13,753 bases of DNA, from positions 1 through 13,753 of the IMG/VR virus record IMGVR_UViG_3300029181_000068. One strand, 5' to 3'. This DNA is from a virus (Duplodnaviria; Heunggongvirae; Uroviricota; Caudoviricetes). Shown piece after piece: positions 1,929 through 13,753 of the stretch (position 1 is its first letter; every line of letters begins with the position of its first letter). A program made the position numbers and the translations under genes. The notes beneath the pieces are model-generated. The model worked only from the letters and a program-made list of their open reading frames with translations, was not told the DNA's origin and ran no database searches.

Positions 1929-2356
1929 CACTGGCGCACCCATTGCCAGCCCTGCAGCCGTGGTGGTGGCTCCGGCACCTGCAATACGATCACGCACCTC
2001 CAGCGAACGGGCATATCCAGGCGAAACGTGCCCGGTGTTTCTCCGGTCTGCCACCACTCAATAATGCGGATCAGGAATCCGAACGGCTCCACCACCCGCC
2101 GCACGGCACTGGTGGTCCCTTTATGCTGATGAATATAAAAAGCATCCTTCACCACCTGGCGCTTGACGCTTTCTGTCCAGCCCTCGTCCCAGCGATCCAC
2201 AGAGAACGCCCAGGCGAGATAAGGCAGGAAACTGACCGGACAGGTTGCCGGATTCCACAAATCACGAAGCGGCACCTGCAGATCAGAAATCCCGCTGCAG
2301 GTTTGCGCCAGTCGGCGCTCCAGTGGTGTTGAACCCGGTGGCAGCAGACTATTCAT
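1928..2356 (-). CDS. I: Phage tail protein I (P2 gpI-like), apparently C-terminally truncated or frame-disrupted after about residue 114
   Basis: ORF of 142 aa. N-terminal ~114 aa (MNSLLPPGSTPLERRLAQ...LWNPATCP...LAWAFSVDRWDE...GTFRLD) resembles P2 gpI as I recall it (~176 aa). The last 28 aa (MPVRWRCVIVLQVPEPPPRLQGWQWVRQ) are Trp/Pro/Arg-rich and look like out-of-frame translation. Stop TGA at 1928-1930 overlaps the ATG at 1928-1926 of the downstream tape-measure frame. Confidence 0.75.
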   Translation of the reverse strand: MNSLLPPGSTPLERRLAQTCSGISDLQVPLRDLWNPATCPVSFLPYLAWAFSVDRWDEGWTESVKRQVVKDAFYIHQHKGTTSAVRRVVEPFGFLIRIIEWWQTGETPGTFRLDMPVRWRCVIVLQVPEPPPRLQGWQWVRQ

Positions 2357-2945
2357 CCGTTCCTCCGTTGGTTACGCTCCACTGCGTACATGATGCCGCC
2401 TGTGTTTTGTTCAGGACCACATCCGCCAGAGGAGAAGCCAGCTCCACACGCTGCACCCCCTCAACATGCAGGGCGGCAAAGATGGCGCTACGGCGAATAT
2501 CCCGACCAAGACGCGTCTGACTGGCGATGTACTTCTGCAGGCTGGCTTTTGCCGCTGCCATTACCGGCTCTGCTTCCGGTCCAGGATAGAGAAAAATGGT
2601 GGCTTCCACGCGATACGGGATGATTTCTGCGCTGCGAACCGTAAGACGGTCAGCCACCGGGCGGACGTTCTCACTGTTCAGAGCTTTTTCCACCACGTCC
2701 AGCAGGTCTTTTTCTGCAGTTCCATCGCCTTCGCGGCTAAGGACAGTCAGCACCACCTCTGCAGGTGCCGGGCTGGTTGCACTGGCATCCGCCACCCGAC
2801 CGTCGGCGCTTCGGGCATGAAATTCATAAGCTGCAGTTGGCCCCGCAACAGAAAGCCCTTCAAAGGCTGCAGGTACACGCAGGCGCAACGCTTCATCGCT
2901 TTCCATCACAGCTGCAACGGGCGGCAGCCTCCAGTACAAACTCAC
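2349..2945 (-). pseudogene. J: Baseplate assembly protein J (P2 gpJ-like), C-terminal ~2/3 only; N-terminal third missing
   Basis: 198-aa ORF whose track start is a GTG. The sequence PPVAAVMESDEALRLR...FEGLSVAG...HARSADGRVAD...RPVADR...LYPGPE...RLGRDIRRSAIFAALHVEGVQRVELASPLADVVL...TDE matches the C-terminal part of P2 gpJ (~302 aa) from memory. No native N-terminus or RBS. Overlaps the 3' end of the V fragment in another frame. Confidence 0.8.
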
Positions 2946-3357
2946 TGGTTTTCATGATGATGTTGTCAGCAGCCTCAATGACCATTGATTTGATGCCCCT
3001 GACATACCAGCGCCCGGTGGCGGGTTCGTATTCAAACCAGCCACCGTCAGGATGTTCTGTCACGCAGGCATCCGCCGACGTCGACGGTGGTGCGAACTGA
3101 TTCGAATAGACAGCGGGCAGCGCAAAGGCGGTTTCCAGATTGCCGCCCAGACTCAGCAGCACCACCTGCTCACCTTCCGATGGTCGCCACCATGTACGGG
3201 CATTCCCGGCACGCAGCGTCAGCCAGCTGATCCAGTTGGTTTCAAGCTCGCCCGTTTTCACCCGGCAAAGCCAGTTTTCCCTGTCCACTTCGGTGACTAC
3301 CCCTGTGCGGATCAGGTTGGTGATAAGGCGCATGATTTCGGTTAATTGTGCGTTCAT
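2893..3357 (-). CDS. V: Baseplate assembly/spike protein V (P2 gpV-like), N-terminal fragment ending in a premature stop
   Basis: 154-aa ORF with ATG at 3357-3355. N-terminus MNAQLTEIMRLITNLIRTGVVTEVD...RVKTG...WISWLTLRAGNARTWWRPSEGEQVVLLSLGGNLETAFALPAVYS has the gpV OB-fold pattern. Shorter than P2 gpV (~211 aa); its reading frame stops at 2893 inside the region where the J frame opens. Confidence 0.75.
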   Translation of the reverse strand: MNAQLTEIMRLITNLIRTGVVTEVDRENWLCRVKTGELETNWISWLTLRAGNARTWWRPSEGEQVVLLSLGGNLETAFALPAVYSNQFAPPSTSADACVTEHPDGGWFEYEPATGRWYVRGIKSMVIEAADNIIMKTSEFVLEAAARCSCDGKR

Positions 3358-3372
3358 AGGGAAAGGTTGCCA

Positions 3373-3930
3373 TCAGGGGAAGAAAGCCGGATTGCTTTCA
3401 CTCAGGACAGCGCCAATCGCTTTATGCAGACGCGCCCGTGACTGGTCCGGCATATCCAGACCGTCTGTCAGCTCCAGCGTCTGCAGCAACAGATCGGCAT
3501 CAAAGCCGGTGGCGGCAAGCATTGCGCTCTGCGCCGCGTCTGCCATTTCCTCTGCCAGCACGGTCTGCACATTGCGATTACCCAGCGGCATCACCCAGCC
3601 ATGACGCAGGGCGTGACGCCCGATCTCCAGCGCCCCGGCATAATCTCCGGCATCAATGCGCCACAGCATCACGTACATCAGCACGTCATCCTGTTGAGCG
3701 CCTCCGGCAGCCAGGACACCCTCCGCCCAGGCGGCGTACTTCGGCAGCAGCTCCACCTTGATTTCCGCTTTTTTGACCGTGGACTGAACGCCCTTGAGAC
3801 GGCGGCGGTCTTCCGCCAGTTGCAGCAGCATCAGGTCATAGCCCGACGCGTGGCGAACGCTGCCGCCCTCGCGGGCGGCCTGTTCAGCCTGAACGCGCAG
3901 GCGATGCTGCCGTGCGGGACTCAGGCTCAT
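3373..3930 (-). CDS. M: Terminase small (endonuclease) subunit, P2 gpM-like; possibly 3'-truncated
   Basis: 185-aa ORF, ATG at 3930-3928, 3 nt after the N stop (TAA 3936-3934). Resembles P2 gpM (QDDVLMYVMLWRIDAGDYAGALEIGRHALRHG, LELTDGLDMPDQSRARLHK). Shorter than the ~247 aa I recall for P2 gpM. Stop at 3373-3375 is only 15 bp from the V start. Confidence 0.8.
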   Translation of the reverse strand: MSLSPARQHRLRVQAEQAAREGGSVRHASGYDLMLLQLAEDRRRLKGVQSTVKKAEIKVELLPKYAAWAEGVLAAGGAQQDDVLMYVMLWRIDAGDYAGALEIGRHALRHGWVMPLGNRNVQTVLAEEMADAAQSAMLAATGFDADLLLQTLELTDGLDMPDQSRARLHKAIGAVLSESNPAFFP

Positions 3931-3933
3931 GAA

Positions 3934-4992
3934 TTACGCTCCGGTTTCTGCTGCTGCGGCGCTGAAGTCGCCAATCTGGATGTTTTCCACCAGTGCGGCG
4001 CAGCGGTAGTCCTCAACCACATAGGCTTCGTTAACGGATTCAAAGTTTTCAATCCGGTCACGTTTCGGGTTGTCGATAACTGAGCGGCGACGGGTGTCTT
4101 CCTGCCAGTAGATGGACAGGTTATCCAGACGGGTGATCAGCAGTGCATTCGGCGGGAAGAACGGCGCACGCACGGCCTGCAGGCCACCCATGCGTTTCTG
4201 ACTGATGATCATATCGGCAGCCAGTTTTTCACTGTTTTCCTGCTCTTTGTTGACCAGCGGGAAATACTTGTCAGACAGCAGTTCACGACCGCAAATCACC
4301 ACCAGATCGTCATCGTCCTGGTAGACCACATCGATAAGCTCATTGACGGCATCCATCACCACGGCGTCCAGGTTGGCATATTCGCCACCTTTCCCGACTT
4401 TCACCGCACCCGGTGTGGTTTCACCGCCCGTGGTGGTGCTGCCCATGACGTGATCCGGTGCATCTTCACGGATTTTCTGCAGCCAGCCTTTGTTCACATC
4501 CTGCAGCAGCGGGTTTTCGCTACGGTTGGAGGTTTTCGCACGCTTCACGCCGTTAAAGCCGATCATGATGCGGTCCAGAGCCTGACGTTTCACGATGGCG
4601 TCACGGATGCGCACCTGGAAATCCTGAAACTTCGCCCACAGGTCCAGCTTCGCGTAGGTCAGCACCGTGTCAAAGTTGGTCTGCTCGCATTTATATTCCA
4701 CATCGACCATCAGCGTCGGATCGACAGGTTCACGCTCTTTCGCGGTGGTGTCAGTGGTTCCGGCAATGGTGCTGCCAACTCCCAGCCCCAGCAGCTGACC
4801 GGACTGCTCAGTCACTGGCGTGACGTTAATCAGCGTCAGGAAAGCGGCGGACTGCTGGATCTGGTCTTCCAGCGTCTGCTGCACAGACGGCTCCACGGTG
4901 AACTTGCTGGACAGTTCTTCAACTGCCACACCGTTCAGACGCGCCAGCTGCTGCAGGTAAGCGTTAAAAGCAAAGCGGGTATTCTTCTTCAT
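3934..4992 (-). CDS. N: Major capsid protein, P2 gpN family
   Basis: 352-aa ORF. Near-collinear resemblance to P2 gpN as recalled (FNAYL...LNG, KFTVEPSV, IGFNGVKRA, NPLLQDVNKGWLQK, KVGKGG.YA.LDAVVMDA, DKYFPLVNKEQENSEKLAADMIISQKRMG, ENFES...YVVEDY). GGAG upstream of ATG 4992-4990. Confidence 0.95.
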   Translation of the reverse strand: MKKNTRFAFNAYLQQLARLNGVAVEELSSKFTVEPSVQQTLEDQIQQSAAFLTLINVTPVTEQSGQLLGLGVGSTIAGTTDTTAKEREPVDPTLMVDVEYKCEQTNFDTVLTYAKLDLWAKFQDFQVRIRDAIVKRQALDRIMIGFNGVKRAKTSNRSENPLLQDVNKGWLQKIREDAPDHVMGSTTTGGETTPGAVKVGKGGEYANLDAVVMDAVNELIDVVYQDDDDLVVICGRELLSDKYFPLVNKEQENSEKLAADMIISQKRMGGLQAVRAPFFPPNALLITRLDNLSIYWQEDTRRRSVIDNPKRDRIENFESVNEAYVVEDYRCAALVENIQIGDFSAAAAETGA

Positions 4993-5008
4993 CGGGTTTT
5001 GTGCTCCA

Positions 5009-5842
5009 TCAGCAATTGGTCAGAGTGTCAGCGGGGGCGTTACCGCCTGTTGCACGCTGGCGGTAGTCCTGGCGACTGTCTTCATGACTCAGCTTGTCCA
5101 CCAGTTCGTTAAAGGCGGTTTGCTGTGCCTGCAGGGCAGTCTCCAGCTCAGACAGGCGTTCTTCCTGCTCAGACAGGGATTTTTCGGTGCGTGCGCTCAG
5201 GTTCTGCTGCTCAGTGGCGACCAGCTCCACGGCCTTATGCACATCAGAGAACCGGGCGTCATCGGACTGCTCTTTTTTGGTAAACAGCGCCGTGACGCGG
5301 GCAAACAGGGACGGTTTGTCGTCCTGGATTTCTTCCAGTTCGATCACCGTTTCCTCTGCAGCGGTAAAGAGATTGGCAGGATTCTGCTTGCGGTTTGCCA
5401 GCGGGTTATGGGCTGCACTGGCGCTGAATGTCAGCATTTCCGTACCCAGACTGGCAGGGTCATCAGTGGCAGCCAGGCCGACCAGATAGGCTTTGCCCGT
5501 ATCAGCGAACTTCGGGCTGACTTCCATAGAGGTGAATAATTTCTGGCCTTTTTTCACCAGTTCCACCAGGGACTCCGTTGGCTCAACGTCGGCATACAGC
5601 GCCATCTTGCCTGCCAGCGGACCTTCCGTGATTTCTTCAGCAAACAGCGCCGTCACCTTGCCGTAGCGGTTAAAGGTGCTGTCCGGCAGATAAGACTTGA
5701 TGTGCTCAAGGTTAATCAGCGCGGTATACACCGCCGGGTTGTAGCTGGCTGCCATCTGTTCCAGCCATTCACGCTGGATTTCGCGTCCGTCGGTGGTGGC
5801 ACCTTCCACCCCGATGCGAAAACGCTTTGCTTTCACTGTCAT
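5009..5842 (-). CDS. O: Capsid scaffolding protein, P2 gpO family
   Basis: 277-aa ORF. Resembles P2 gpO (FRIGVEGATTDGREI, INLEHIKSYLPD, TSMEVSPKFADTGKAYLVGLAATDDPASLGTEML, ASDDARFSDVHKAV, C-terminal ATGG...TNC). GGAG 8 nt upstream of ATG 5842-5840. First gene of the leftward head operon. Confidence 0.95.
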   Translation of the reverse strand: MTVKAKRFRIGVEGATTDGREIQREWLEQMAASYNPAVYTALINLEHIKSYLPDSTFNRYGKVTALFAEEITEGPLAGKMALYADVEPTESLVELVKKGQKLFTSMEVSPKFADTGKAYLVGLAATDDPASLGTEMLTFSASAAHNPLANRKQNPANLFTAAEETVIELEEIQDDKPSLFARVTALFTKKEQSDDARFSDVHKAVELVATEQQNLSARTEKSLSEQEERLSELETALQAQQTAFNELVDKLSHEDSRQDYRQRATGGNAPADTLTNC

Positions 5843-5920
5843 GAGCCGTGCTCCGTTAGAAAAAACTTACTGGAGCCTTATGGTTGCGGTGATGGGGGCA
5901 GTGAAACAATGCGCGGTATT

Positions 5921-5938
5921 TGTACCGACAACCACACA
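5921..5938. promoter_or_regulatory. TGT-N12-ACA dyad (Ogr/Delta-type late activator box) in the divergent O/P late promoter region (5843-5984)
   Basis: Exact TGTaccgacaaccacACA in the 142-bp gap between divergent O (minus) and P (plus). P2-family late promoters carry TGT-N12-ACA centred near -55. The spacing fits the leftward O promoter best (dyad centre ~5929; plausible -10 CATAAG on the minus strand near 5876-5881; O ATG at 5842). Confidence 0.45.
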
Positions 5939-5984
5939 AACCGCAGGCGGGGAAAGCCTTCATTCAAGGCTGTAGGTTTGTGCC

Positions 5985-7751
5985 ATGAACACCACACTGA
6001 CACCCGCAGATCTCGATCCCCGTCGGCAGGCCATGCTGCTGTACTTTCAGGGATACCGCGTAGCCCGCATTGCTGAAATGCTGGGCGAGAAAGTTGCAAC
6101 CGTTCACAGCTGGAAAAAACGCGACAAGTGGGGTGACTATGGGCCGCTGGATCAGATGCAGCTCACCACCGCCGCACGCTACTGCCAGCTCATTATGAAG
6201 GAGCACAAAGAAGGGAAAGATTTCAAAGAGATTGACCTGCTGGCGCGCCAGTCGGAGCGCCATGCGCGGATCGGCAAGTTTAACAATGGCGGCAACGAAG
6301 CCGACTTAAACCCTAACGTCGCCAACCGCAACAAAGGCCCGCGCCGTCAGCCGGAAAAGAACGTTTTCACCGATGAACAGATTGAGAAGCTGGAAGAAAT
6401 CTTTTATTCCTCCATGTTCAACTACCAGCGCCACTGGTGGGAAGCCGGAAAAACCAACCGCATCCGCAACCTGCTGAAGTCACGCCAGATCGGCGCGACC
6501 TTTTACTTTGCCCGTGAAGCCCTGATTGACGCCCTGCTTACCGGACGTAACCAGATTTTCCTTTCTGCCAGTAAGGCACAGGCGCACGTCTTTAAGCAGT
6601 ACATCATCGACTTTGCCAAAGAAGTTGAGGTGGAGCTGAAAGGCGATCCTATGGTGCTACCTAATGGCGCAGCATTGTACTTTCTCGGCACCAACGCCCG
6701 TACGGCGCAGAGCTACCACGGCAACCTGTACCTTGATGAATATTTCTGGATACCGAAATTCCAGGAACTGCGCAAAGTTGCCTCCGGGATGGCCATTCAC
6801 AAGAAATGGCGACAAACCTACTTTTCCACGCCGTCCAGCCTGACCCACAGTGCCTATCCGTTCTGGTCCGGTGCGCTGTTTAACCGGGGCCGCGCCAAAG
6901 CGGACAAGGTGGATATTGACCTGACCCACAGCAATCTTGCGCGCGGCCTGCTCTGCCCTGACGGACAGTACCGCCAGATAGTCACTGTGGAAGATGCGGT
7001 GCGCGGCGGCTGTAACCTGTTCGACCTCGACCAGTTGCGCATGGAGTACAGCCCGGACGAATACCAGAACCTGTTGATGTGCGAGTTTGTGGACGATCTC
7101 GCGTCCGTGTTTCCGCTCAGCGAGCTGCAGGCGTGCATGGTGGACAGTTGGGAAGTCTGGACCGACTTTCATGCACTGGCCCTGCGCCCGTTTGGCTGGC
7201 GCGAAGTCTGGATCGGATACGACCCGGCGAAAGGCACGCAAAACGGCGACAGCGCCGGATGCGTGGTGGTGGCACCGCCAGCCGTGCCGGGTGGTAAGTT
7301 CCGCATTCTTGAGCGTCACCAGTGGCGCGGGATGGACTTCCGCGCCCAGGCTGACGCCATCAAAAAACTGACCGAACAGTACAACGTGACCTATATCGGT
7401 ATCGACTCAACCGGCGTTGGTCACGGGGTTTACGAGAACGTGAAAGCGTTTTTTCCTGCCGTCCGGGAGTTTGTCTACAACCCCAACGTTAAAAACGCCC
7501 TGGTACTCAAGGCCTACGACATTATTAGCCACCGCCGCCTGGAGTTTGACGCAGGGCACACCGACATAGCGCAGTCCTTTATGGCAATCCGTCGCGCCAC
7601 CACTGCCAGCGGCAACCGCCCGACCTATGAAGCCAGCCGCAGCGAAGAAGCCAGCCACGCCGATCTGGCCTGGGCAACAATGCACGCACTGTTTAATGAA
7701 CCGCTGCAGGGCGAGTCCGCCAATACCAGCAATATTGTGGAGATTTTTTGA
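5985..7751 (+). CDS. P: Terminase large (ATPase) subunit, P2 gpP family
   Basis: 588-aa ORF; P2 gpP is ~590 aa. Resembles the P2 terminase ATPase subunit (MLLYFQGYRVARIAEMLGEK, KSRQIGATFYF Walker A-like, NLYLDEYFWIP, IGYDPA...GDSAG). Stop TGA at 7749-7751 overlaps the Q ATG. Confidence 0.95.
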   Translation: MNTTLTPADLDPRRQAMLLYFQGYRVARIAEMLGEKVATVHSWKKRDKWGDYGPLDQMQLTTAARYCQLIMKEHKEGKDFKEIDLLARQSERHARIGKFNNGGNEADLNPNVANRNKGPRRQPEKNVFTDEQIEKLEEIFYSSMFNYQRHWWEAGKTNRIRNLLKSRQIGATFYFAREALIDALLTGRNQIFLSASKAQAHVFKQYIIDFAKEVEVELKGDPMVLPNGAALYFLGTNARTAQSYHGNLYLDEYFWIPKFQELRKVASGMAIHKKWRQTYFSTPSSLTHSAYPFWSGALFNRGRAKADKVDIDLTHSNLARGLLCPDGQYRQIVTVEDAVRGGCNLFDLDQLRMEYSPDEYQNLLMCEFVDDLASVFPLSELQACMVDSWEVWTDFHALALRPFGWREVWIGYDPAKGTQNGDSAGCVVVAPPAVPGGKFRILERHQWRGMDFRAQADAIKKLTEQYNVTYIGIDSTGVGHGVYENVKAFFPAVREFVYNPNVKNALVLKAYDIISHRRLEFDAGHTDIAQSFMAIRRATTASGNRPTYEASRSEEASHADLAWATMHALFNEPLQGESANTSNIVEIF

Positions 7752-8776
7752 TGGGAAAGAGTAAGAAAAACCGCGCTGCGGCGACGAATCAGCTCAAGCA
7801 TAAAAGCCAAACTTCAGCCGAAGCATTCAGCTTTGGCGATCCCGTTCCTGTTCTGGACCGCCGTGAACTGCTGGACTATGTGGAATGCGTACAGATGGAT
7901 CGCTGGTATGAGCCGCCCGTCAGCTTTGACGGACTGGCACGAACCTTCCGCGCCGCCGTGCATCACAGCTCACCAATTGCGGTGAAATGCAACATTCTGA
8001 CCAGTACCTACATCCCTCACCCGCTGCTCAGCCAGCAGGCTTTTTCACGTTTTGTGCAGGACTATCTGGTATTTGGTAACGCCTACCTGGAGAAACGCAC
8101 GAACCGCTTCGGTGAAGTTATCGCCCTTGAGCCTGCTCTGGCAAAATACACCCGACGCGGGTTAGACCTGGATACCTACTGGTTTGTGCAATACGGTATG
8201 ACAACCCAGCCGTATCAGTTCACGAAAGGCAGCATTTTTCATCTGATGGAACCTGACATCAACCAGGAGATCTACGGCCTACCAGGTTATCTTTCTGCCA
8301 TTCCGTCAGCCCTGCTCAACGAGTCCGCCACGCTGTTCCGCCGGAAGTATTACATTAACGGCAGCCATGCAGGCTTCATCATGTACATGACCGATGCCGC
8401 GCAGAACCAGGAGGATGTGAACAACCTCCGCAATGCGATGAAAAGCGCCAAAGGCCCTGGCAACTTCCGCAACCTGTTTATGTACTCGCCTAACGGCAAA
8501 AAGGACGGGCTTCAGATCATCCCGTTGTCAGAAGTCGCGGCGAAGGATGAATTTCTGAACATCAAGAACGTCAGCCGTGATGACATGATGGCGGCACACC
8601 GCGTACCGCCTCAGATGATGGGAATTTTGCCGAATAATGTTGGGGGTTTTGGTGATGTGGAGAAGGCGAGCTGCGTCTTCGTAAGAAATGAACTATTACC
8701 ACTTCAAAAAAGATTCATGGAAATAAACAGATGGCTTGGTCATGAAATTATAAATTTTGAAATATATACATTATAA
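7751..8776 (+). CDS. Q: Portal (capsid portal vertex) protein, P2 gpQ family; last ~30 codons AT-rich
   Basis: The ORF track starts at TTG 7748; the likely start is ATG 7751 (MGKSKKNR...), overlapping the P stop as TGATG. 341 aa; P2 gpQ is ~344 aa. Portal-like throughout (GNAYLEKR, YWFVQYG, GLPGYLSAIPSALLNE, YYINGSHAGFIMYMTD, MMGILPNNVGGFGDVEKA). Codon usage turns AT-rich from ~8680 (AGA, CTA, TTA, ATA codons). Confidence 0.95.
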   Translation: MGKSKKNRAAATNQLKHKSQTSAEAFSFGDPVPVLDRRELLDYVECVQMDRWYEPPVSFDGLARTFRAAVHHSSPIAVKCNILTSTYIPHPLLSQQAFSRFVQDYLVFGNAYLEKRTNRFGEVIALEPALAKYTRRGLDLDTYWFVQYGMTTQPYQFTKGSIFHLMEPDINQEIYGLPGYLSAIPSALLNESATLFRRKYYINGSHAGFIMYMTDAAQNQEDVNNLRNAMKSAKGPGNFRNLFMYSPNGKKDGLQIIPLSEVAAKDEFLNIKNVSRDDMMAAHRVPPQMMGILPNNVGGFGDVEKASCVFVRNELLPLQKRFMEINRWLGHEIINFEIYTL

Positions 8777-8781
8777 AACCC

Positions 8782-8804
8782 AACGGCATCACAATGATGC
8801 CGTT
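8782..8804. terminator. Hairpin between convergent Q and the PIN-like gene; probable intrinsic terminator for the minus-strand gene
   Basis: AACGGCATC-acaat-GATGCCGTT: 9-bp perfect stem with a 5-nt loop. On the minus strand it is followed by GGGTTTTAT. No T-run follows it on the plus strand. Confidence 0.4.
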
Positions 8805-8813
8805 ATGAACGAA

Positions 8814-9875
8814 TTAATATTCAAAATTATTTTCTTCAATAGAGAACTCAATCCCTCGGGATAACTTATCAATATTCACATCAAATGCGATATCTGTTAA
8901 TTCACCATCCTCGATTTCATACATAACTTCAATTTCAATATCGAAACTAATCTCTTGAACTTCAGTTCGTGTGGTTGTCTCCATTGGAATCATTACTTTA
9001 TCTTCGCTATCCCAATACCCATTATTAAAGTCTGGACCAGAAACAGTAACTTCAAAATCTACAGAAACAGAGAAGGTCGCTAGACAATAATTATTGTCAA
9101 TCTTAATTATTGATGGTTCAAAGTCATCAATATTGACGACTTCAAATGAATCCAATTCAGCGTCTTCCCAAGTTGAAACGTTATATCCATCGGCATCATT
9201 GAGTTGGGCAATTACGTCCGCTCTTATGTCTTCACGTTTGCTTTCGATAAACTGCATCAATTTATTACTTAATTCGTTTGTATGCGTATTGTATTCACCT
9301 AGAAACTTATCAAGTGAATCAATTTGATGAAGATTGTTTTTACCATCACAATAATTTTTTAAGTCACTATCCTCAGAAATGATATACACATCTTCATCAT
9401 TAACAAATCGCTCTACCGCAGCTAAAGTGATTGCATCAGGAAACTCACTTTTTTTCTTATTTTGCCCAAATGGTGGTTCTTTGCCAAAGTATTTATCTAA
9501 AACCTCATTAAGATCTATCACTTCTATTGTAGCTAATTTGGCGTGACATCCTTTCAAAAAATCATCAAAAACTTTTTGTGCTGCTTCGTGAATTTCATGT
9601 TCGTTAAATTGCTGAAAAAAACCATGGAGCGGTCCATTATCAATACTATTCAAAAGCCTAGCTTTTCTTTGTACTGTGTTTATAGCCTGCAGAGCATCCT
9701 TTATTGATTCCTCTATTTTACCTTTTACTTCTCTCTCTACAACTGTAGTTGTAATTAAGACTAAATCACCTTTCGCACATAATTCATGGAAAGCTTTAAA
9801 TGCTACCCCCTCAAAATGAAGACCAGCCTTTACGTACGTTTGTGTGTCAATAAATACCTTATTTGTTTTAAGCAT
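8814..9875 (-). CDS. PIN-like nuclease-domain protein with an acidic C-terminal domain; candidate stand-alone defence or abortive-infection gene
   Basis: 353-aa ORF in AT-rich DNA. ATG 9875-9873 with AGGA 5 nt upstream. N-terminal ~170 aa carry PIN-like acidic motifs (KVFIDTQ; LVLITTTVVEREV; EFPDAITLAAVERFV; VYIISEDSDL). C-terminal ~150 aa are very Asp/Glu-rich with alternating hydrophobics (FDIEIEVMYEIEDGELTDIAFDVNID). Domain call is by motif pattern only. Confidence 0.7.
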   Translation of the reverse strand: MLKTNKVFIDTQTYVKAGLHFEGVAFKAFHELCAKGDLVLITTTVVEREVKGKIEESIKDALQAINTVQRKARLLNSIDNGPLHGFFQQFNEHEIHEAAQKVFDDFLKGCHAKLATIEVIDLNEVLDKYFGKEPPFGQNKKKSEFPDAITLAAVERFVNDEDVYIISEDSDLKNYCDGKNNLHQIDSLDKFLGEYNTHTNELSNKLMQFIESKREDIRADVIAQLNDADGYNVSTWEDAELDSFEVVNIDDFEPSIIKIDNNYCLATFSVSVDFEVTVSGPDFNNGYWDSEDKVMIPMETTTRTEVQEISFDIEIEVMYEIEDGELTDIAFDVNIDKLSRGIEFSIEENNFEY

Positions 9876-10001
9876 ACTAATCCTAATAAGTTTTAAGATC
9901 CGCTACAATTGTTTATGTTTATTTTTTATCAATAATCATACGTAGTTAAGATTATCCATGTCGAAAAATTAAATCAACTTCAATTTATCCTTAAGCGCGC
10001 G

Positions 10002-10020
10002 CTCGTATCCCCGCCACGCC
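10002..10020 (-). other. Candidate cos site (19-nt cohesive end, P2/186-like)
   Basis: Minus strand reads GGCGTGGCGGGGATACGAG followed by CGCGCGCTTAAGG. The P2 left end as I remember it is GGCGAGGCGGGGAAAGCAC then TGCGCGCTGACGG (about 24 of 32 matches; position 5 T as in phage 186). Orientation fits P2: cos, then Q and P transcribed toward cos. It is a GC-rich patch inside otherwise AT-rich accessory DNA. Confidence 0.5.
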
Positions 10021-10382
10021 TGCCCGCTTTATGTAGTGGTTTTCATGCACCTGCATGACATAAGCAAAAGCACGCCAGTTCTGGCTGACTTCAGCAAAAA
10101 CGATCCTCAAACGATCATGCGATCTCATGCGTCATAGTCATGCGCTGCCAAGGGAAGCGTAAATCCGTATCTGAATGACTGCTGAAAAGCGAATCATACG
10201 GGTTTACAAAGATGAAAGTTCGCTGTGAGCGAGAAGCGAACCTTGCAACTTTGTTGGCACAGTTTTAACACCAATTTTTTGAGGATAGCTAGAAAACTTG
10301 TGGCATAAAGGATCAGTTTCCCGATCGAACTTTTTATCAAGAAGGGCTCATAGCAATCGCCAGAAGAAGTGATGTTAAAGTA

Positions 10383-10411
10383 TTGAGCTCGGCGTTAAGA
10401 TTAAATAAATT
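10383..10411 (+). promoter_or_regulatory. Candidate sigma70-type promoter for the SIR2-HerA operon
   Basis: TTGAGC, 17-nt spacer, TAAATT, about 35 nt upstream of ATG 10445 (RBS AAGGA at 10435-10439). Weak match in AT-rich DNA; other candidates exist. Confidence 0.25.
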
Positions 10412-10444
10412 ACAGACTAATCCAATGTTTTGTGGAAGGATAAG

Positions 10445-11488
10445 ATGGCAGTCAAGCGCGCATACTACGGTAACGATAGTGACCGAGACTACTTAGAGCG
10501 GATATTTCAGTCAGCTAACATTAACTTTCTCATCGGATCAGGTGCATCCCTCCCAGCGATTAAAGTACTGGGGACAATCGAAACGGATCTTCAGCAGCTT
10601 ATTAATGATGAACAGGAAGATGAATACTTAAGGATGGCAGCTGACTTTTTGTCAGATGTTTGGCTACCTCATGAATGCATGTTGAAGCGCGGCTACGGCA
10701 CCCCCTTCGCACCTCAGGTGATCACCGATTTGGAATGTACCCGTGCAAATTATGATGCATTTATGTCTTCTCTGGAAAAGATACTGACCCGCCGCCGAAC
10801 TGGCCTACTTCCGAGGCGTATTAACGTTTTTACAACTAATTATGATTTATTCATCGAAGAAGCTGCCACACGTAATAACAATATTCTTTTTAATGATGGA
10901 TTCAATAGAAGAGCAAGTATTTTGGGAGATGCGGAATTTGATGCGGGTAGCTTTAATCATTCTGTAAGTGCAACCGGAAATCTGTATAATTATAAAGTTG
11001 AGCTTCCTACTGTTAACCTTATAAAACTTCATGGTTCGCTCTCTTGGCAGCATTCTAAAGGGAAAATCATTTATCGTATTGCAGATATTAAGCCGCTTGA
11101 CTTTCCCACCCTAGCCGAAATGAAAGGATGGGTACTTGCTCATGCACTTATTCTTCCACGTAAGGAGAAGTTTAAAGAGACTCTACTACAGAACGTTTAT
11201 TATGATTTACTGAGAACCTATTCCAACGAGCTTGATAAAGAAGCAACTTTACTAATTGTCTTTGGGTTCTCGTTTGCTGATGAGCACATTGAAACGATAA
11301 CTAAAAAAGCCCTGCGCAACGCCACCCTGAAGCTACTGATCTTTGCTTTCGATGAGGCCAGTGTTAACGGCTTTATGGAGAAATTTCGGGATTACTCAAA
11401 CGTAGAGATTATTTATCGGCCGGGAAGAAATGTTGATTTTCCGGTAATGAATAACATTATCACGTGCTATCTGGGAGGCTCGAGATGA
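10445..11488 (+). CDS. SIR2-like (sirtuin-fold) NAD-binding protein, defence-associated type
   Basis: ORF track starts at TTG 10430; the likely start is ATG 10445 (MAVKRAYYG...), 5 nt after AAGGA. 347 aa. Sirtuin-like motifs: Gly-rich loop FLIGSGAS (10532-10549), VFTTNYDLFIEEA (TQN-like) and IKLHGSLSW (catalytic His region). AT-rich codon usage. Stop TGA at 11486-11488 overlaps the HerA ATG. Confidence 0.9.
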   Translation: MAVKRAYYGNDSDRDYLERIFQSANINFLIGSGASLPAIKVLGTIETDLQQLINDEQEDEYLRMAADFLSDVWLPHECMLKRGYGTPFAPQVITDLECTRANYDAFMSSLEKILTRRRTGLLPRRINVFTTNYDLFIEEAATRNNNILFNDGFNRRASILGDAEFDAGSFNHSVSATGNLYNYKVELPTVNLIKLHGSLSWQHSKGKIIYRIADIKPLDFPTLAEMKGWVLAHALILPRKEKFKETLLQNVYYDLLRTYSNELDKEATLLIVFGFSFADEHIETITKKALRNATLKLLIFAFDEASVNGFMEKFRDYSNVEIIYRPGRNVDFPVMNNIITCYLGGSR

Positions 11489-13344
11489 GCAGGCATTTTA
11501 CTGAAGAGGAAGCGGTGCTCCGTATAGGCGAAGTCTGTGAGGTTTCTGGACGCGCTGTGACAATTTTGGTCGATAAAAACAAAAATCTCAGTGACTTGTT
11601 TTATCAGGGAAAAGTTCTAAGAAATGTATCAGTGGGTAGCTTCATTGAGATCAAAAAAGGTTTCATGAGCCTGATCGGCAAGGTTGAAGCGGAACGAATC
11701 ATTGAGGAAAAACATCTCGCTGGGAGCGGCAGTGATGCCTGGCGATATCGGCGATACCTGACCTCTACTCTTACGGGTTACATTGATCGTACTGGTTGCT
11801 TCATTGGTGGTTCGCGTGAACTACCTCTCATCGGCAATGAAGTCTTCGTGGTAACTGAAGAGATGATACAGACGGTTCATCAGATAGCTGATGCAGACGA
11901 AACTGTAATGAGGTTTACTCGTACAGATCTTGAAGATATTGAAATTGCACTACCAATCAATGGTCTTATTAATTCCCACATTGCCATTTTCGGTAATACA
12001 GGCAGCGGAAAGTCAAATACCCTAGCCGCGCTATACAAAGCAGGTATTGCCCAAGTTAAACATATTCTCGGCAACCACTTTAGTGAAAGATGCAAATTTA
12101 TTCTATTCGACTTTAATGGAGAATATACTGCCCCACGCTGTATTACTGACGAGAAGACGGTTTATAATCTCAACACGCACCATGCAAATGGTGACAAACT
12201 TCCTCTACCCAGAGAGGTTCTACTTGAGCATGATATGCTCTCAGTTCTAACCGATGCAACAGACAAAACACAGAAACCTTTCCTGAAGAGAGTTCTTGAG
12301 TTTCGCAAGAAAGTGATGACTGCTGATAATCCTCTTGAGTTTATGCGCAATATCCTGAAGAAAAAAGTCAGACAAAATCTCTTTAGTAGCGACAAACCCA
12401 AATGCGATACTATAAATCAGTTTCTTAGCCCAATTTTCAAAGATGACCCAGAACTTATATCTGATCTTGAGTATCATTCAACTGCATATAAATGGAAATT
12501 GAGGGGTGGTAGTATTTTCAATACAGAAGCTGATACTGAGCGCTCCTATCTATTCAGTCTTGCAAGCAATTTTTCATTTAAAACTGATATGATTGAAGAA
12601 CTGTTGGACTTTATGTACTTACAGTTAATACAGGAATATTTATCTAACAAGTCTAACCCTGAACATATTTCACCAGTTATAAATAGAATGAGTGCTAACC
12701 GTAAAGATATAGCCAAAATATTTGATACTTCCGGACAGTCTGACTTTTGGGGTGAACATAATTTCACGGTTGTGAATCTAAATATGGTTAATATAACCAT
12801 GAAAAAAACGCTTCCTCTTTTGATAGCCAAGTGGGCTTACAATATGAAGAAAATGTCTACAGAGAAATCTACACTGCACATCATTATAGATGAAGCCCAC
12901 AATATTTTGTCTAATACTTCTTTTCGGGAAACGGAAAGTTGGAGAGATTATCGTCTGGAAACTTTTGAGGAAATCATAAAGGAGGGGAGAAAATTTGGAG
13001 TTTTTATCACAATTTCCAGTCAACGCCCTAATGATATATCGTCGACAATCATATCCCAAGCACACAATTATTTTATTCATCGCCTTATTAATCAGAATGA
13101 TCTGTACGCAATTGAAAAATCAGTATCATATATAGATCGACTGACTGAAGAGTCGATTCCAACGCTATCTACAGGAACCTGTATTTTTAGTGGTATCGTC
13201 TGCCCCATGCCGCTCAAATTAAGGGTAGCTGAACTTCCAATTGAAGAAAAACCTAAGAGTAATACTATTTCCTTCAACGATTTAATACCTGAGAGGCTGG
13301 GAGAGGATGACCAGAGCGACTACGTAATAACCAGCCCTCACTAA
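11485..13344 (+). CDS. HerA-like (FtsK/HerA superfamily) ATPase, partner of the SIR2-like protein
   Basis: ORF track starts at GTG 11464 inside the SIR2 gene; the likely start is ATG 11485 (MSRHFTEEE...), with GGGAGG 6 nt upstream and an ATGA overlap with the SIR2 stop. 619 aa. Walker A FGNTGSGKSNT (11992-12015), Walker B LHIIIDEAH (12880-12900), and a downstream FITISSQRPNDIS motif. AT-rich. Confidence 0.9.
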   Translation: MSRHFTEEEAVLRIGEVCEVSGRAVTILVDKNKNLSDLFYQGKVLRNVSVGSFIEIKKGFMSLIGKVEAERIIEEKHLAGSGSDAWRYRRYLTSTLTGYIDRTGCFIGGSRELPLIGNEVFVVTEEMIQTVHQIADADETVMRFTRTDLEDIEIALPINGLINSHIAIFGNTGSGKSNTLAALYKAGIAQVKHILGNHFSERCKFILFDFNGEYTAPRCITDEKTVYNLNTHHANGDKLPLPREVLLEHDMLSVLTDATDKTQKPFLKRVLEFRKKVMTADNPLEFMRNILKKKVRQNLFSSDKPKCDTINQFLSPIFKDDPELISDLEYHSTAYKWKLRGGSIFNTEADTERSYLFSLASNFSFKTDMIEELLDFMYLQLIQEYLSNKSNPEHISPVINRMSANRKDIAKIFDTSGQSDFWGEHNFTVVNLNMVNITMKKTLPLLIAKWAYNMKKMSTEKSTLHIIIDEAHNILSNTSFRETESWRDYRLETFEEIIKEGRKFGVFITISSQRPNDISSTIISQAHNYFIHRLINQNDLYAIEKSVSYIDRLTEESIPTLSTGTCIFSGIVCPMPLKLRVAELPIEEKPKSNTISFNDLIPERLGEDDQSDYVITSPH

Positions 13345-13488: not shown

Positions 13489-13722
13489 TTAATGCAGCCA
13501 GCTGTCGTCTTCCCACACTTTCTGCATAATTTTCATCACTTGTTTTCTTTCTTCATCCAGTTGCAGTCCGGTCAGTTCCACACCGTTAGAGCTACCTTTG
13601 CGGATACGAATTACCGTTTTGGGATACAGGGGGCGCAGATTGCGGTAAAGCTCGGATTCAAGGGCGTCCAGGGTAGACTGGCTAATCTTCTGCTCTTTAT
13701 CGATCATTATTTCAATGCGCAT
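13489..13722 (-). CDS. DinI-like family protein
   Basis: Track ORF starts at ATG 13746; the likely start is ATG 13722-13720 (MRIEIMIDKEQ...), with GAGGTG 6 nt upstream. 77 aa. Resembles E. coli DinI (MRIEVTIAK..., ~81 aa) in length, N-terminus and acidic C-terminus (WEDDSW). Backbone-like GC content. Confidence 0.8.
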   Translation of the reverse strand: MRIEIMIDKEQKISQSTLDALESELYRNLRPLYPKTVIRIRKGSSNGVELTGLQLDEERKQVMKIMQKVWEDDSWLH

Positions 13723-13753
13723 AAAAGTCACCTCAACTGATGACATCCATTGA

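What the first reader, a model, noticed from the sequence alone, without database searches (positions are those of the whole stretch)
9991..10030. Candidate cos site embedded between the two cargo modules
The minus strand reads GGCGTGGCGGGGATACGAG-CGCGCGCT, close to the 19-nt cohesive end and adjacent bases of P2 and 186 as I remember them, in the orientation expected relative to Q and P. It is a GC-rich patch flanked by AT-rich cargo, as expected if cargo is exchanged around a conserved packaging site. If cos is functional, the element keeps its packaging site next to intact terminase and portal genes.
Basis: partly seen in the sequence, partly recalled or inferred. Interest (0 to 1): 0.5.

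Follow-up and report, generated by a model that had tools for sequence, protein, structure and literature searches.

The report
P2-family cos site, defective prophage
The flagged GC-rich patch is the DNA-packaging (cos) site of a Fels-2-type P2-like prophage, sitting in the well-known defence-gene hotspot; this is ordinary, published biology, and this prophage copy has lost too many genes to package itself.

Summary
The minus strand at 10020-10002 reads GGCGTGGCGGGGATACGAG, followed by CGCGCGC (10001-9995). This 19-mer matches the cohesive ends of 186 at 15/19 and of P2/P4 at 14/19. It is identical to the cos published for virion-derived Salmonella phage SEN8 and to the same sequence in Fels-2 and SopEPhi. 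The whole 55-bp P2/P4 cos core (10049-9995) is 55/55 identical to Fels-2.

It sits in a sharply bounded conserved island (9995-10146), in P2 orientation relative to Q and P. Two cargo slots flank it and assort independently. One holds a PIN-domain gene (cos to Q); the other holds SIR2-HerA (cos to DinI). This is the gpA-gpQ defence hotspot of Rousset et al. 2022.

The new caveat is that the prophage is defective. Three internal deletions remove L, X, Y, K, lysA, lysB, R, S and W. They also remove the block from the tail-fibre genes to the 5' part of T, and they truncate the small terminase gpM (185 aa instead of 216), V, J and T. gpP and gpQ are full length. The cos sequence is therefore intact but could act only in trans, with a helper.

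Novelty: already known. Interest: low.

The parts
10002..10020 (-). 19-nt cohesive-end sequence GGCGTGGCGGGGATACGAG (the cosN equivalent). By homology with P2, the nicks are predicted between 10021|10020 on the minus strand and 10001|10002 on the plus strand, giving 5' overhangs.
   Evidence: Identical to Fels-2, SopEPhi, SEN8 and YpMLG42; 15/19 to 186; 14/19 to P2/P4. SEN8 1-19 is annotated 'putative cos site' and published as such.
9995..10001 (-). CGCGCGC, the 7-bp left-end flank of the 55-bp core. Homology to all relatives stops here and the PIN cargo begins.
   Evidence: P4 has CGCGCGC; P2 and 186 have TGCGCGC.
10021..10049 (-). 29-bp right-end arm of the 55-bp P2/P4 cos core (TGCATGAAAACCACTACATAAAGCGGGCA).
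   Evidence: 29/29 to Fels-2, 23/29 to 186, 22/29 to P2 and P4. The 55-bp core concept comes from Ziermann & Calendar 1990, as cited in PMC5694545 and PMC3931495.
9995..10146 (-). The whole conserved cos island (152 bp) between the two variable cargo slots.
   Evidence: (BLAST E about 6e-57 to Peduoviridae phages), and (per-position conservation in 111 unique viral-contig segments).
10043..10058 (.). Dyad TCATGCA-GG-TGCATGA, 23-38 bp from the predicted nick. Candidate terminase-binding element (inferred).
   Evidence: I11, 7-nt arms, 100% complementary. Most positions are conserved at 0.95 or more. 186 has TCATGCA-AC-TGCATTA.
10115..10143 (-). Three direct CGCATGA repeats spaced 10 and 13 bp apart. 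Candidate cosB-like recognition repeats (inferred).
   Evidence: D2. Five of the window's 12 GCATGA sites fall within 10043-10143. Conserved at 0.9 or more. Related GCATG/TGCAT runs are present in the corresponding arms of P2 and 186; the distal P4 arm was not examined.
10074..10089 (-). Hairpin followed by a T run, aligned with the region of 186 that holds terminator t95b. This copy carries four rare substitutions that weaken the stem.
   Evidence: window bases at 10090, 10088, 10086 and 10072 are shared by only 2-8% of relatives.
5985..7751 (+). gpP, terminase large subunit, full length (588 aa).
   Evidence: Terminase_5, Terminase_6N, Terminase_6C; 98.8% over 588/588 aa to an intact E. coli prophage; 63% to P2 gpP.
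7751..8776 (+). gpQ, portal protein, full length (341 aa).
   Evidence: 100% over 341/341 aa to the Q of the Z1323HEC0423 prophage; 62% to P2 gpQ.
3373..3930 (-). gpM', truncated terminase small subunit. Residues 1-182 of 216 plus 3 foreign residues, ending at a deletion junction.
8814..9875 (-). Left cargo slot (cos to Q): a single PIN_12-domain gene (353 aa), AT-rich.
   Evidence: 'PIN domain-containing protein' next to the portal gene in 36 complete E. coli genomes. No PADLOC or NCBIfam hit.
10430..13344 (+). Right cargo slot (cos to DinI): two-gene SIR2-HerA anti-phage system, transcribed away from cos like old/tin in P2.
   Evidence: PADLOC SIR2 6e-211, HerA 6e-267..
13489..13746 (-). DinI/Tum-like gene, the conserved backbone edge of the right cargo slot.
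2013..3390 (.). Three deletion junctions relative to the 99%-identical phage 500465-1: about 2013-2015 (T to I), about 2918-2926 (J to V), and about 3384-3390 (upstream of V to M).
   Evidence: 3-9 nt microhomologies. (the same junctions occur in independent metagenome assemblies).

Best explanation
Window 9995-10146 is the cos (cohesive-end packaging) region of a Fels-2/Wadgaonvirus-type P2-like (Peduoviridae) prophage. By homology with P2, 186 and P4, the terminase (gpM plus gpP) recognises the 55-bp core (10049-9995). It probably also uses the conserved GCATGA repeats and the dyad on the right-end arm (10043-10143). It would then make two nicks 19 nt apart, at 10021|10020 on the minus strand and 10001|10002 on the plus strand, leaving the 5' overhang GGCGTGGCGGGGATACGAG. 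The site lies in the gpA-gpQ hotspot and acts as a fixed hinge between two cargo slots that are exchanged independently by recombination. In this copy one slot holds a PIN gene and the other SIR2-HerA. The cos sequence here is intact and matches the element's own terminase type. However, the prophage has three internal deletions: gpM is truncated, and L, the lysis genes and most tail genes are gone. This cos therefore cannot serve autonomous packaging. At most it could be cut and packaged in trans by a related helper phage. Shown here: sequence identity, position, orientation, island boundaries, cargo assortment and the deletions. Inferred: the nick positions, the role of the repeats, and non-function in cis.
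For: Sequence. The 19-mer, the 7-mer and the 29-bp arm are 55/55 identical to Fels-2 and 54/55 to SEN8, SopEPhi and YpMLG42. They match 186 at 44/55, P4 at 43/55 and P2 at 42/55. SEN8 is a virion-derived phage, and its paper and record give ggcgtggcggggatacgag as its cos.

Statistics. There is a single hit in the window and none in 200 shuffles. The 152-bp island hits 91 phage records, all named as P2-like where checked, with E down to 6e-57.

Boundaries. Conservation is at least 0.9 at most positions from 9995 to about 10145 and about 0.25-0.3 outside.

Context. The order gpP, gpQ, cargo, cos, cargo, DinI is the same as in Fels-2, SopEPhi and SEN8.

Slot variability. The cos-to-Q gap is 156-3534 bp in 87 loci and the DinI-to-cos gap is 205-3444 bp in 80 loci. 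PIN pairs with a P-loop NTPase, and SIR2-HerA pairs with AIPR or with a retron Ec67 RT, in other E. coli prophages.

Literature. The cos-adjacent gpA-gpQ hotspot is described in PMC9122126 and PMC13586616. The cosL-to-Q insertion site is noted in PMC5694545.

Defectiveness. Alignment to phage 500465-1 shows jumps 25017 to 18389, 17476 to 16664 and 16191 to 12806, with microhomology at the junctions. gpM' covers 182 of 216 residues. Pfam finds only fragments of V and J next to M. The same junctions occur in independent assemblies.
Against: No experimental end determination exists for the ATACGAG variant in anything I could read. The SEN8 cos was assigned by annotation, so the nick positions rest on homology to P2, 186 and P4. 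The role of the GCATGA repeats and the dyad is inferred from conservation only. I could not read Ziermann & Calendar 1990 to compare the island with their minimal functional fragment. The conservation profile is conditioned on an exact 26-mer, so the 1.00 values inside it are by construction. The window does not show the rest of the prophage (int, cox, A, B, att), so excision and replication competence and total size are unknown. The truncated gpM keeps the whole Pfam Phage_term_smal domain and might retain some activity.
Confidence: 0.88

Rival explanations
1. Fully functional cos in a self-sufficient, inducible P2-like prophage. This is the first reader's implied reading: the packaging site is kept beside an intact packaging machine.
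For: gpP and gpQ are full length and the cos core is identical to that of active phages. The same Q-PIN-cos block sits in an apparently complete prophage in E. coli Z1323HEC0423.
Against: Three internal deletions remove L, X, Y, K, lysA, lysB, R, S and W, plus the block from the tail-fibre genes through sheath, tube and E to the 5' part of T. They also truncate M, V, J and T. The junctions recur in independent assemblies, so they are not an assembly artefact.
Confidence: 0.03
2. A relic with no present role. The cos island is conserved here only because it arrived recently by recombination, together with its flanking cargo, from a functional phage. It is never cut in this host.
For: A sister copy (L016) is 100% identical to the window from 1808 to about 7500, including all three deletion junctions. 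It then diverges through Q (pS 0.31), and it carries different cargo and an island only 88% identical outside the core. The Q-cargo-cos-cargo block was therefore replaced after the prophage had become defective. No selection for packaging in this element is needed to explain the intact cos.
Against: This is not really exclusive of the best explanation; it differs only in whether trans-packaging by a helper ever happens. About 1280 of 5426 complete E. coli genomes have a megablast match to the queries containing this island, although those queries also include Q, DinI and cargo sequence. If many of these are related prophages, helpers with the same cos type would be common.
Confidence: 0.45
3. 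The cos of a P4-like satellite rather than of a P2-like phage.
For: P4 shares the 55-bp core, including CGCGCGC, and P4-like elements also carry a defence hotspot next to cos.
Against: The neighbours are P2-type Q, P, O, N and M on one side and DinI on the other, in the same order as Fels-2. Nothing satellite-like turned up among the ORFs scanned. The island is 92% identical to P2-like phage records across 152 bp.
Confidence: 0.01
4. A chance GC-rich match, or a regulatory element (terminator or promoter) unrelated to packaging.
For: The island contains a terminator-like hairpin. Both cargo modules are transcribed away from it, so their promoters must lie near it.
Against: No shuffle gives a match. 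The core is 55/55 identical to known P2-like phages. The promoter-like hits in 8700-10500 are not above chance (7 found against 7.2 expected), and the one nearest cos lies in the cargo, not in the island. The hairpin is the least conserved part in this copy.
Confidence: 0.01

Closest known systems
cos of the Fels-2 group of Peduoviridae (Fels-2, SopEPhi, SEN8, RE-2010, Yersinia phage vB_YpM_MLG42, Klebsiella phage 4LV2017, Escherichia phage 500465-1)
   Same: The 19-mer and the 26-mer are identical and the 55-bp core matches at 54-55/55. The 152-bp island is 87-93% identical. The position between DinI-side cargo and Q-side cargo is the same.
   Different: This copy has four rare substitutions in the hairpin at 10072-10090. 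It also sits in a multiply deleted prophage. The ends of this cos variant appear to be assigned by homology, not measured.
cos of coliphages P2, 186 and satellite P4 (experimentally defined 19-nt 5' cohesive ends; 55-bp P2/P4 core of Ziermann & Calendar 1990)
   Same: The length and architecture match: a 29-bp right-end arm beginning TGCAT(T/G)AAAACC, the 19-mer GGCG(A/T)GGCGGGGA..., then YGCGCGC. The orientation relative to Q and P is the same. Overall identity is 42-44/55.
   Different: Positions 14, 16, 17 and 19 of the overhang differ (ATACGAG against AAAGCAC or AAAGCAT). These ends would therefore not anneal perfectly with P2 or 186 ends, and terminase specificity may differ. The window's gpP, gpQ and gpM are only 63%, 62% and 49% identical to those of P2. 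In P2 and 186 the cos-to-Q slot is empty (167-176 bp); here it holds a 1.06-kb gene.
P2 gpA-gpQ defence hotspot (Rousset et al. 2022, PMC9122126; Nucleic Acids Res 2026, PMC13586616)
   Same: Variable anti-phage cargo lies next to cos between the replication side and the portal gene. P2's own old/tin genes occupy the same slot and orientation as SIR2-HerA here.
   Different: Nothing substantive. The data here add a detail: cos splits the hotspot into two independently assorting slots, with breakpoints at the edges of the 152-bp island.
Lambda cos (cosN, cosB with R sites, cosQ)
   Same: The general logic is shared: a nicking site with staggered cuts and an adjacent array of short repeats that could bind the small terminase.
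   Different: There is no sequence similarity. The overhang is 19 nt rather than 12 nt. The repeat function here is inferred only. From my own knowledge, not checked here, P2 terminase is reported to prefer circular monomers over concatemers.

Membership tests
P2-family (Peduoviridae) cos site | A 19-nt GC-rich sequence homologous to the experimentally determined cohesive ends of P2, 186 and P4 | tested here: met
   14/19 to P2 and P4, 15/19 to 186, 19/19 to Fels-2, SEN8 and SopEPhi. Unique in the window; 0 of 200 shuffles match.
P2-family (Peduoviridae) cos site | The 55-bp core shared by P2 and P4 (29-bp right-end arm, 19-mer, YGCGCGC) | tested here: met
   42/55 to P2, 43/55 to P4, 44/55 to 186, 55/55 to Fels-2. 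The core is as cited in PMC5694545 and PMC3931495.
P2-family (Peduoviridae) cos site | Position and orientation: between the replication/DinI side and the portal gene Q, with Q and P on the strand opposite to the 19-mer | tested here: met
   In 87 of 120 viral contigs carrying the 26-mer, Q lies downstream in this orientation.
P2-family (Peduoviridae) cos site | Cognate terminase (gpP plus gpM) encoded by the same element | tested here: inconclusive
   gpP is full length and of the type found with this cos (98.8% to an intact prophage). gpM lacks 34 of 216 C-terminal residues.
P2-family (Peduoviridae) cos site | Cleavage by terminase to give 19-nt 5' overhangs and packaging of the DNA | not testable with these tools
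   This needs virion DNA end sequencing or an in vitro cleavage or transduction assay.
P2 gpA-gpQ defence hotspot | Variable gene content between conserved backbone genes in otherwise homologous prophages | tested here: met
P2 gpA-gpQ defence hotspot | Carries recognisable anti-phage systems | tested here: met
   SIR2 (6e-211) and HerA (6e-267) PADLOC models. The PIN gene has no PADLOC hit.
Intact, self-packaging P2-like prophage | Complete late gene set (Q P O N M L X Y K lysA lysB R S V W J I H G FI FII E T U D) | tested here: not met
   L to S, W, and the block from the tail-fibre genes to the 5' part of T are absent. M, V, J and T are truncated. U and D lie outside the window.
P4-like satellite cos | cos adjacent to the psu-delta-sid helper-subversion module; no capsid genes | tested here: not met
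   The neighbours are Q, P, O, N and M and DinI.

The most novel reading that the evidence does not exclude
The triple-deleted prophage may not be mere debris. It could be a persisting P2 derivative without tails or lysis genes that keeps cos, TerL, portal, scaffold, capsid and two defence modules. It still swaps its Q-cos-cargo block, as shown by the sister copy that is identical up to about 7500 but carries different cargo. It might be mobilised through its intact cos by a resident or superinfecting Fels-2-type helper, as a P2-derived, capsid-encoding, satellite-like element.
Probability: 0.06. Interest if true: 0.5.

Novelty: already known. Interest (0 to 1): 0.15.

Why it matters
As a cos call it mainly has annotation value. 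It fixes the genome ends and the map orientation of this prophage family, and it explains why a GC-rich 152-bp block survives between two AT-rich defence cassettes.

The comparison also yields a 'natural deletion analysis'. Homology in more than 100 relatives stops exactly 7 bp left of the overhang and about 125 bp to its right. This predicts the functional extent of cos in the Fels-2 group and points to the GCATGA repeats and the dyad as candidate terminase contacts.

For people mining defence islands, cos is a reliable anchor. It splits the gpA-gpQ hotspot into two independently assorting slots. A defective prophage can still receive new cargo by block recombination.

Tried and rejected
1. 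Searching the window for the P2 19-mer with up to 3 mismatches found nothing. The true site has 5 mismatches to P2, so a degenerate pattern was needed.

2. I tried to read Ziermann & Calendar 1990 for the minimal functional cos fragment, but the paper is not held. Only the '55-bp core' as quoted by later papers could be used.

3. I looked for phage records that physically end at the site. SEN8 starts at the 19-mer, but by annotation. The Cartapus, Midge and SW9 records end at other, apparently arbitrary positions. This gave no independent evidence for the ends.

4. The promoter scan of 8700-10500 gave 7 hits against 7.2 expected, so no promoter claim is made.

5. I considered a conserved hairpin inside the 29-bp arm (10024-10039). 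The pairing is weak (5 pairs including one G-T), and by eye the same pairing is not kept in the P2, 186 and P4 sequences. I dropped it.

6. I considered that the deletions might be an assembly artefact. This was rejected because the same junctions occur in three different sequence contexts from independent assemblies.

7. dN/dS between the window and L016 was uninformative for selection. The two are identical up to about 7500, and the differences are a recombination tract.

8. The genome contigs and metagenome-contig scans, structure prediction and deep protein searches were not used. They would not have changed the verdict on cos.

Full report
**Observation**

The plus strand at 9990-10030 reads cttaagcgcgcgctcgtatccccgccacgcctgcccgcttt. 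The minus strand therefore reads ...AAAGCGGGCA GGCGTGGCGGGGATACGAG CGCGCGC TTAAGG. The 19-mer occupies 10002-10020 and the CGCGCGC occupies 9995-10001.

I fetched the deposited ends of P2 (NC_001895), 186 (NC_001317) and P4 (NC_001609) and rebuilt their circular junctions. The annotated cohesive ends are:
- P2 and P4: GGCGAGGCGGGGAAAGCAC
- 186: GGCGTGGCGGGGAAAGCAT

The window matches these at 14/19 and 15/19. The adjacent YGCGCGC matches at 6-7/7. A degenerate pattern built from these ends hits only this place in the window, and no hit appears in 200 shuffles. The patch 9995-10030 is 75% G+C, against 33% and 40% for the flanks.

**What it is**

The 152 bases 9995-10146 hit 91 phage records, with E-values down to 6e-57. 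Every record I checked is P2-like (Peduoviridae): Fels-2, SopEPhi, RE-2010, SEN8, Yersinia vB_YpM_MLG42, many Klebsiella prophage-derived phages, and Escherichia phage 500465-1.

Later papers quote Ziermann & Calendar 1990 for a 55-bp cos core shared by P2 and P4. In the P2/P4 junctions this core is a 29-bp right-end arm, the 19-mer and 7 further bases. The window has all of it at 10049-9995. Identity of that core is:

| Relative | Identity |
|---|---|
| Fels-2 | 55/55 |
| SEN8, SopEPhi, MLG42 | 54/55 |
| 186 | 44/55 |
| P4 | 43/55 |
| P2 | 42/55 |

. The exact 19-mer ggcgtggcggggatacgag is published as the cos site of the virion-derived phage SEN8 and annotated at positions 1-19 of its record. 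That assignment was made by annotation, not by end sequencing.

Gene context agrees. gpP (5985-7751), gpQ (7751-8776), gpO, gpN and gpM are P2-type, and a DinI/Tum-like gene closes the other side. This gives the Fels-2 order: DinI, cargo, cos, cargo, Q, P. The orientation relative to Q and P is that of P2.

**Extent and anatomy**

An exact-match scan of IMG/VR for the 26-mer returned 120 contigs before hitting its cap. I anchored 111 unique segments on the 26-mer. Identity to the window is at least 0.9 at most positions from 9995 to about 10145. It falls to 0.25-0.3, which is random, immediately outside on both sides. Values inside the 26-mer are 1.00 by construction.

The island therefore ends 7 bp left of the overhang and extends about 125 bp into the right-end arm. 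That arm contains:
- Five GCATGA motifs within 101 bp. The whole window has only 12, about the number expected, so this is local clustering.
- Two of these motifs form a perfect 7-bp dyad, TCATGCA-GG-TGCATGA (10043-10058).
- Three of them are direct CGCATGA repeats spaced 10 and 13 bp apart (10115-10144).
- Two GATCGTTT repeats (10098-10116).
- A hairpin with a T run (10074-10089), aligned with the region of 186 that holds terminator t95b.

Related TGCAT/GCATG runs occur in the corresponding arms of P2 and 186. I infer, but cannot show, that the repeats and the dyad are terminase recognition elements analogous to cosB.

**Mechanism**

By homology with P2, 186 and P4, terminase would nick between 10021|10020 on the minus strand and between 10001|10002 on the plus strand. 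This leaves 19-nt 5' overhangs. It is an inference from homology, since no measured ends for the ATACGAG variant were found. Four overhang positions differ from P2 and 186. The window's gpP, gpQ and gpM are only 63%, 62% and 49% identical to those of P2. This is probably a distinct specificity group within the family.

**Cargo around cos**

Between Q and cos lies a 353-aa PIN_12-domain gene (8814-9875, minus strand). It has no PADLOC or NCBIfam match. Between cos and DinI lies a SIR2-HerA pair (10430-13344; PADLOC 6e-211 and 6e-267). It is transcribed away from cos, as old/tin are in P2.

Each half is found at 99% or more in complete E. coli genomes, but never together:
- PIN pairs with a P-loop NTPase in an apparently complete prophage at rcdA/ybjJ.
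- SIR2-HerA pairs with an AIPR protein.
- SIR2-HerA pairs with a retron Ec67 reverse transcriptase.

Homology breakpoints fall at 9974-9996 on one side and at 10143-10151 or 10233 on the other. Across the viral contigs the cos-to-Q gap ranges from 156 to 3534 bp and the DinI-to-cos gap from 205 to 3444 bp. The window has 1225 and 3468 bp.

This is the cos-adjacent gpA-gpQ defence hotspot described by Rousset et al. 2022 and analysed again in 2026. The cosL-to-Q insertion point was noted even earlier.

**The caveat: a defective prophage**

Pfam showed fragments of V, J and I directly next to M. Alignment to the 98.9-99.9%-identical phage 500465-1 shows three deletions:

| Jump in the phage coordinates | Position in the window |
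|---|---|
| 25017 to 18389 | about 2015 |
| 17476 to 16664 | about 2920 |
| 16191 to 12806 | about 3387 |

Each junction has 3-9 nt of microhomology. Lost genes are L, X, Y, K, lysA, lysB, R, S and W, plus the block from the tail-fibre genes through invertase, sheath, tube and E to the 5' part of T. M, V, J and T are truncated. gpM' keeps residues 1-182 of 216.

The exact gpM' protein occurs on five contigs from independent assemblies. None of 5426 complete E. coli genomes spans the M'-V' junction.

One contig (L016) is 100% identical to the window from 1808 to about 7500, through all three junctions. It then diverges through Q (pS 0.31), carries different cargo on both sides, and has an island only 88% identical outside the identical 55-bp core. 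The Q-cargo-cos-cargo block was therefore replaced by recombination after the prophage became defective.

The intact cos here needs no selection for packaging to explain it. The element cannot package itself. Use in trans by a helper with the same cos type is possible but untested.

**Verdict**

This is a correctly spotted, genuine P2-family cos site of the Fels-2 type. It sits in the known defence hotspot, inside a deleted prophage. Novelty: already known. Interest: low.

The only mildly new points are the sharply delimited 152-bp island with its repeat architecture, and the post-decay block exchange of the cos-hotspot region.

Noticed in passing
window 1-3390 (junctions at about 2013-2015, 2918-2926, 3384-3390): There are three internal deletions relative to the 99%-identical Escherichia phage 500465-1, of about 6.6 kb, 0.8 kb and 3.4 kb. 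Window 1-2015 is an internal fragment of the tape-measure gene T on the minus strand. The 369-aa plus-strand ORF at 10-1119 has no Pfam hit and is probably an antisense artefact.
   Followed up: yes
window 1808-8758 compared with L016 (human gut metagenome contig, ERZ914683): The two copies are 100% identical from 1808 to about 7500. All 95 differences lie in the end of P and in Q, and beyond that the cargo is different (a PDDEXK_GAPS4 protein and others). This is a block replacement of Q-cargo-cos-cargo in an already deleted prophage.
   Followed up: yes
L015 (Logan ERR14041721, 39-kb contig): A further-decayed remnant shares the M'-V' junction. It contains int, a SNIPE-nuclease cargo gene, CI, a truncated TerL, N, M', a V fragment and ogr. 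It sits between a TetR-family/MFS gene pair (apparently the same site as the rcdA/ybjJ insertion) and E. coli chromosomal genes. The deletion lineage therefore seems to persist and keep eroding.
   Followed up: partly
window 8814-9875 (-): This is a single-gene cargo encoding a 353-aa PIN_12 protein with a weak DUF7339 hit. It has no PADLOC 2.0 or NCBIfam hit. It lies next to cos in 36 or more complete E. coli genomes and is annotated only as 'PIN domain-containing protein'. It is a candidate uncharacterised anti-phage gene.
   Followed up: partly
window 10430-13344 (+): This is a SIR2-HerA two-gene defence system with overlapping genes. It has full-length PADLOC matches but scores far below the NCBIfam equivalog cut-offs, so it is a divergent subtype. 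In other E. coli prophages it pairs with AIPR or retron Ec67 RT on the other side of cos.
   Followed up: partly
window 10072-10090 (-): The terminator-like hairpin in the cos island carries four substitutions (at 10090, 10088, 10086 and 10072) found in only 2-8% of 111 relatives. They weaken the consensus 9-bp stem GCCCGCCAG/CTGGCGGGC. This may be tolerated because the adjacent cargo here is transcribed away from cos.
   Followed up: partly
window 8781-8805: A strong 11-bp-stem hairpin lies between the convergent Q and PIN genes. It is probably a shared or bidirectional terminator at the cargo/backbone boundary.
   Followed up: no
L014/L005 (NC_049342.1, Escherichia phage 500465-1): The RefSeq 'phage' record has a 1-nt deletion inside the 19-mer (GGCGT-GCGGGG), split portal and terminase ORFs, and an IS21/IS100-type insertion. 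It also includes about 9 kb of host chromosome (smpB, recN, grpE, ffh). It is a prophage excerpt rather than a virion genome.
   Followed up: no
window 10098-10116: Two GATC (Dam) sites lie within the direct repeats GATCGTTT, and most of their positions are well conserved across relatives. Their significance for packaging or regulation is unknown.
   Followed up: no
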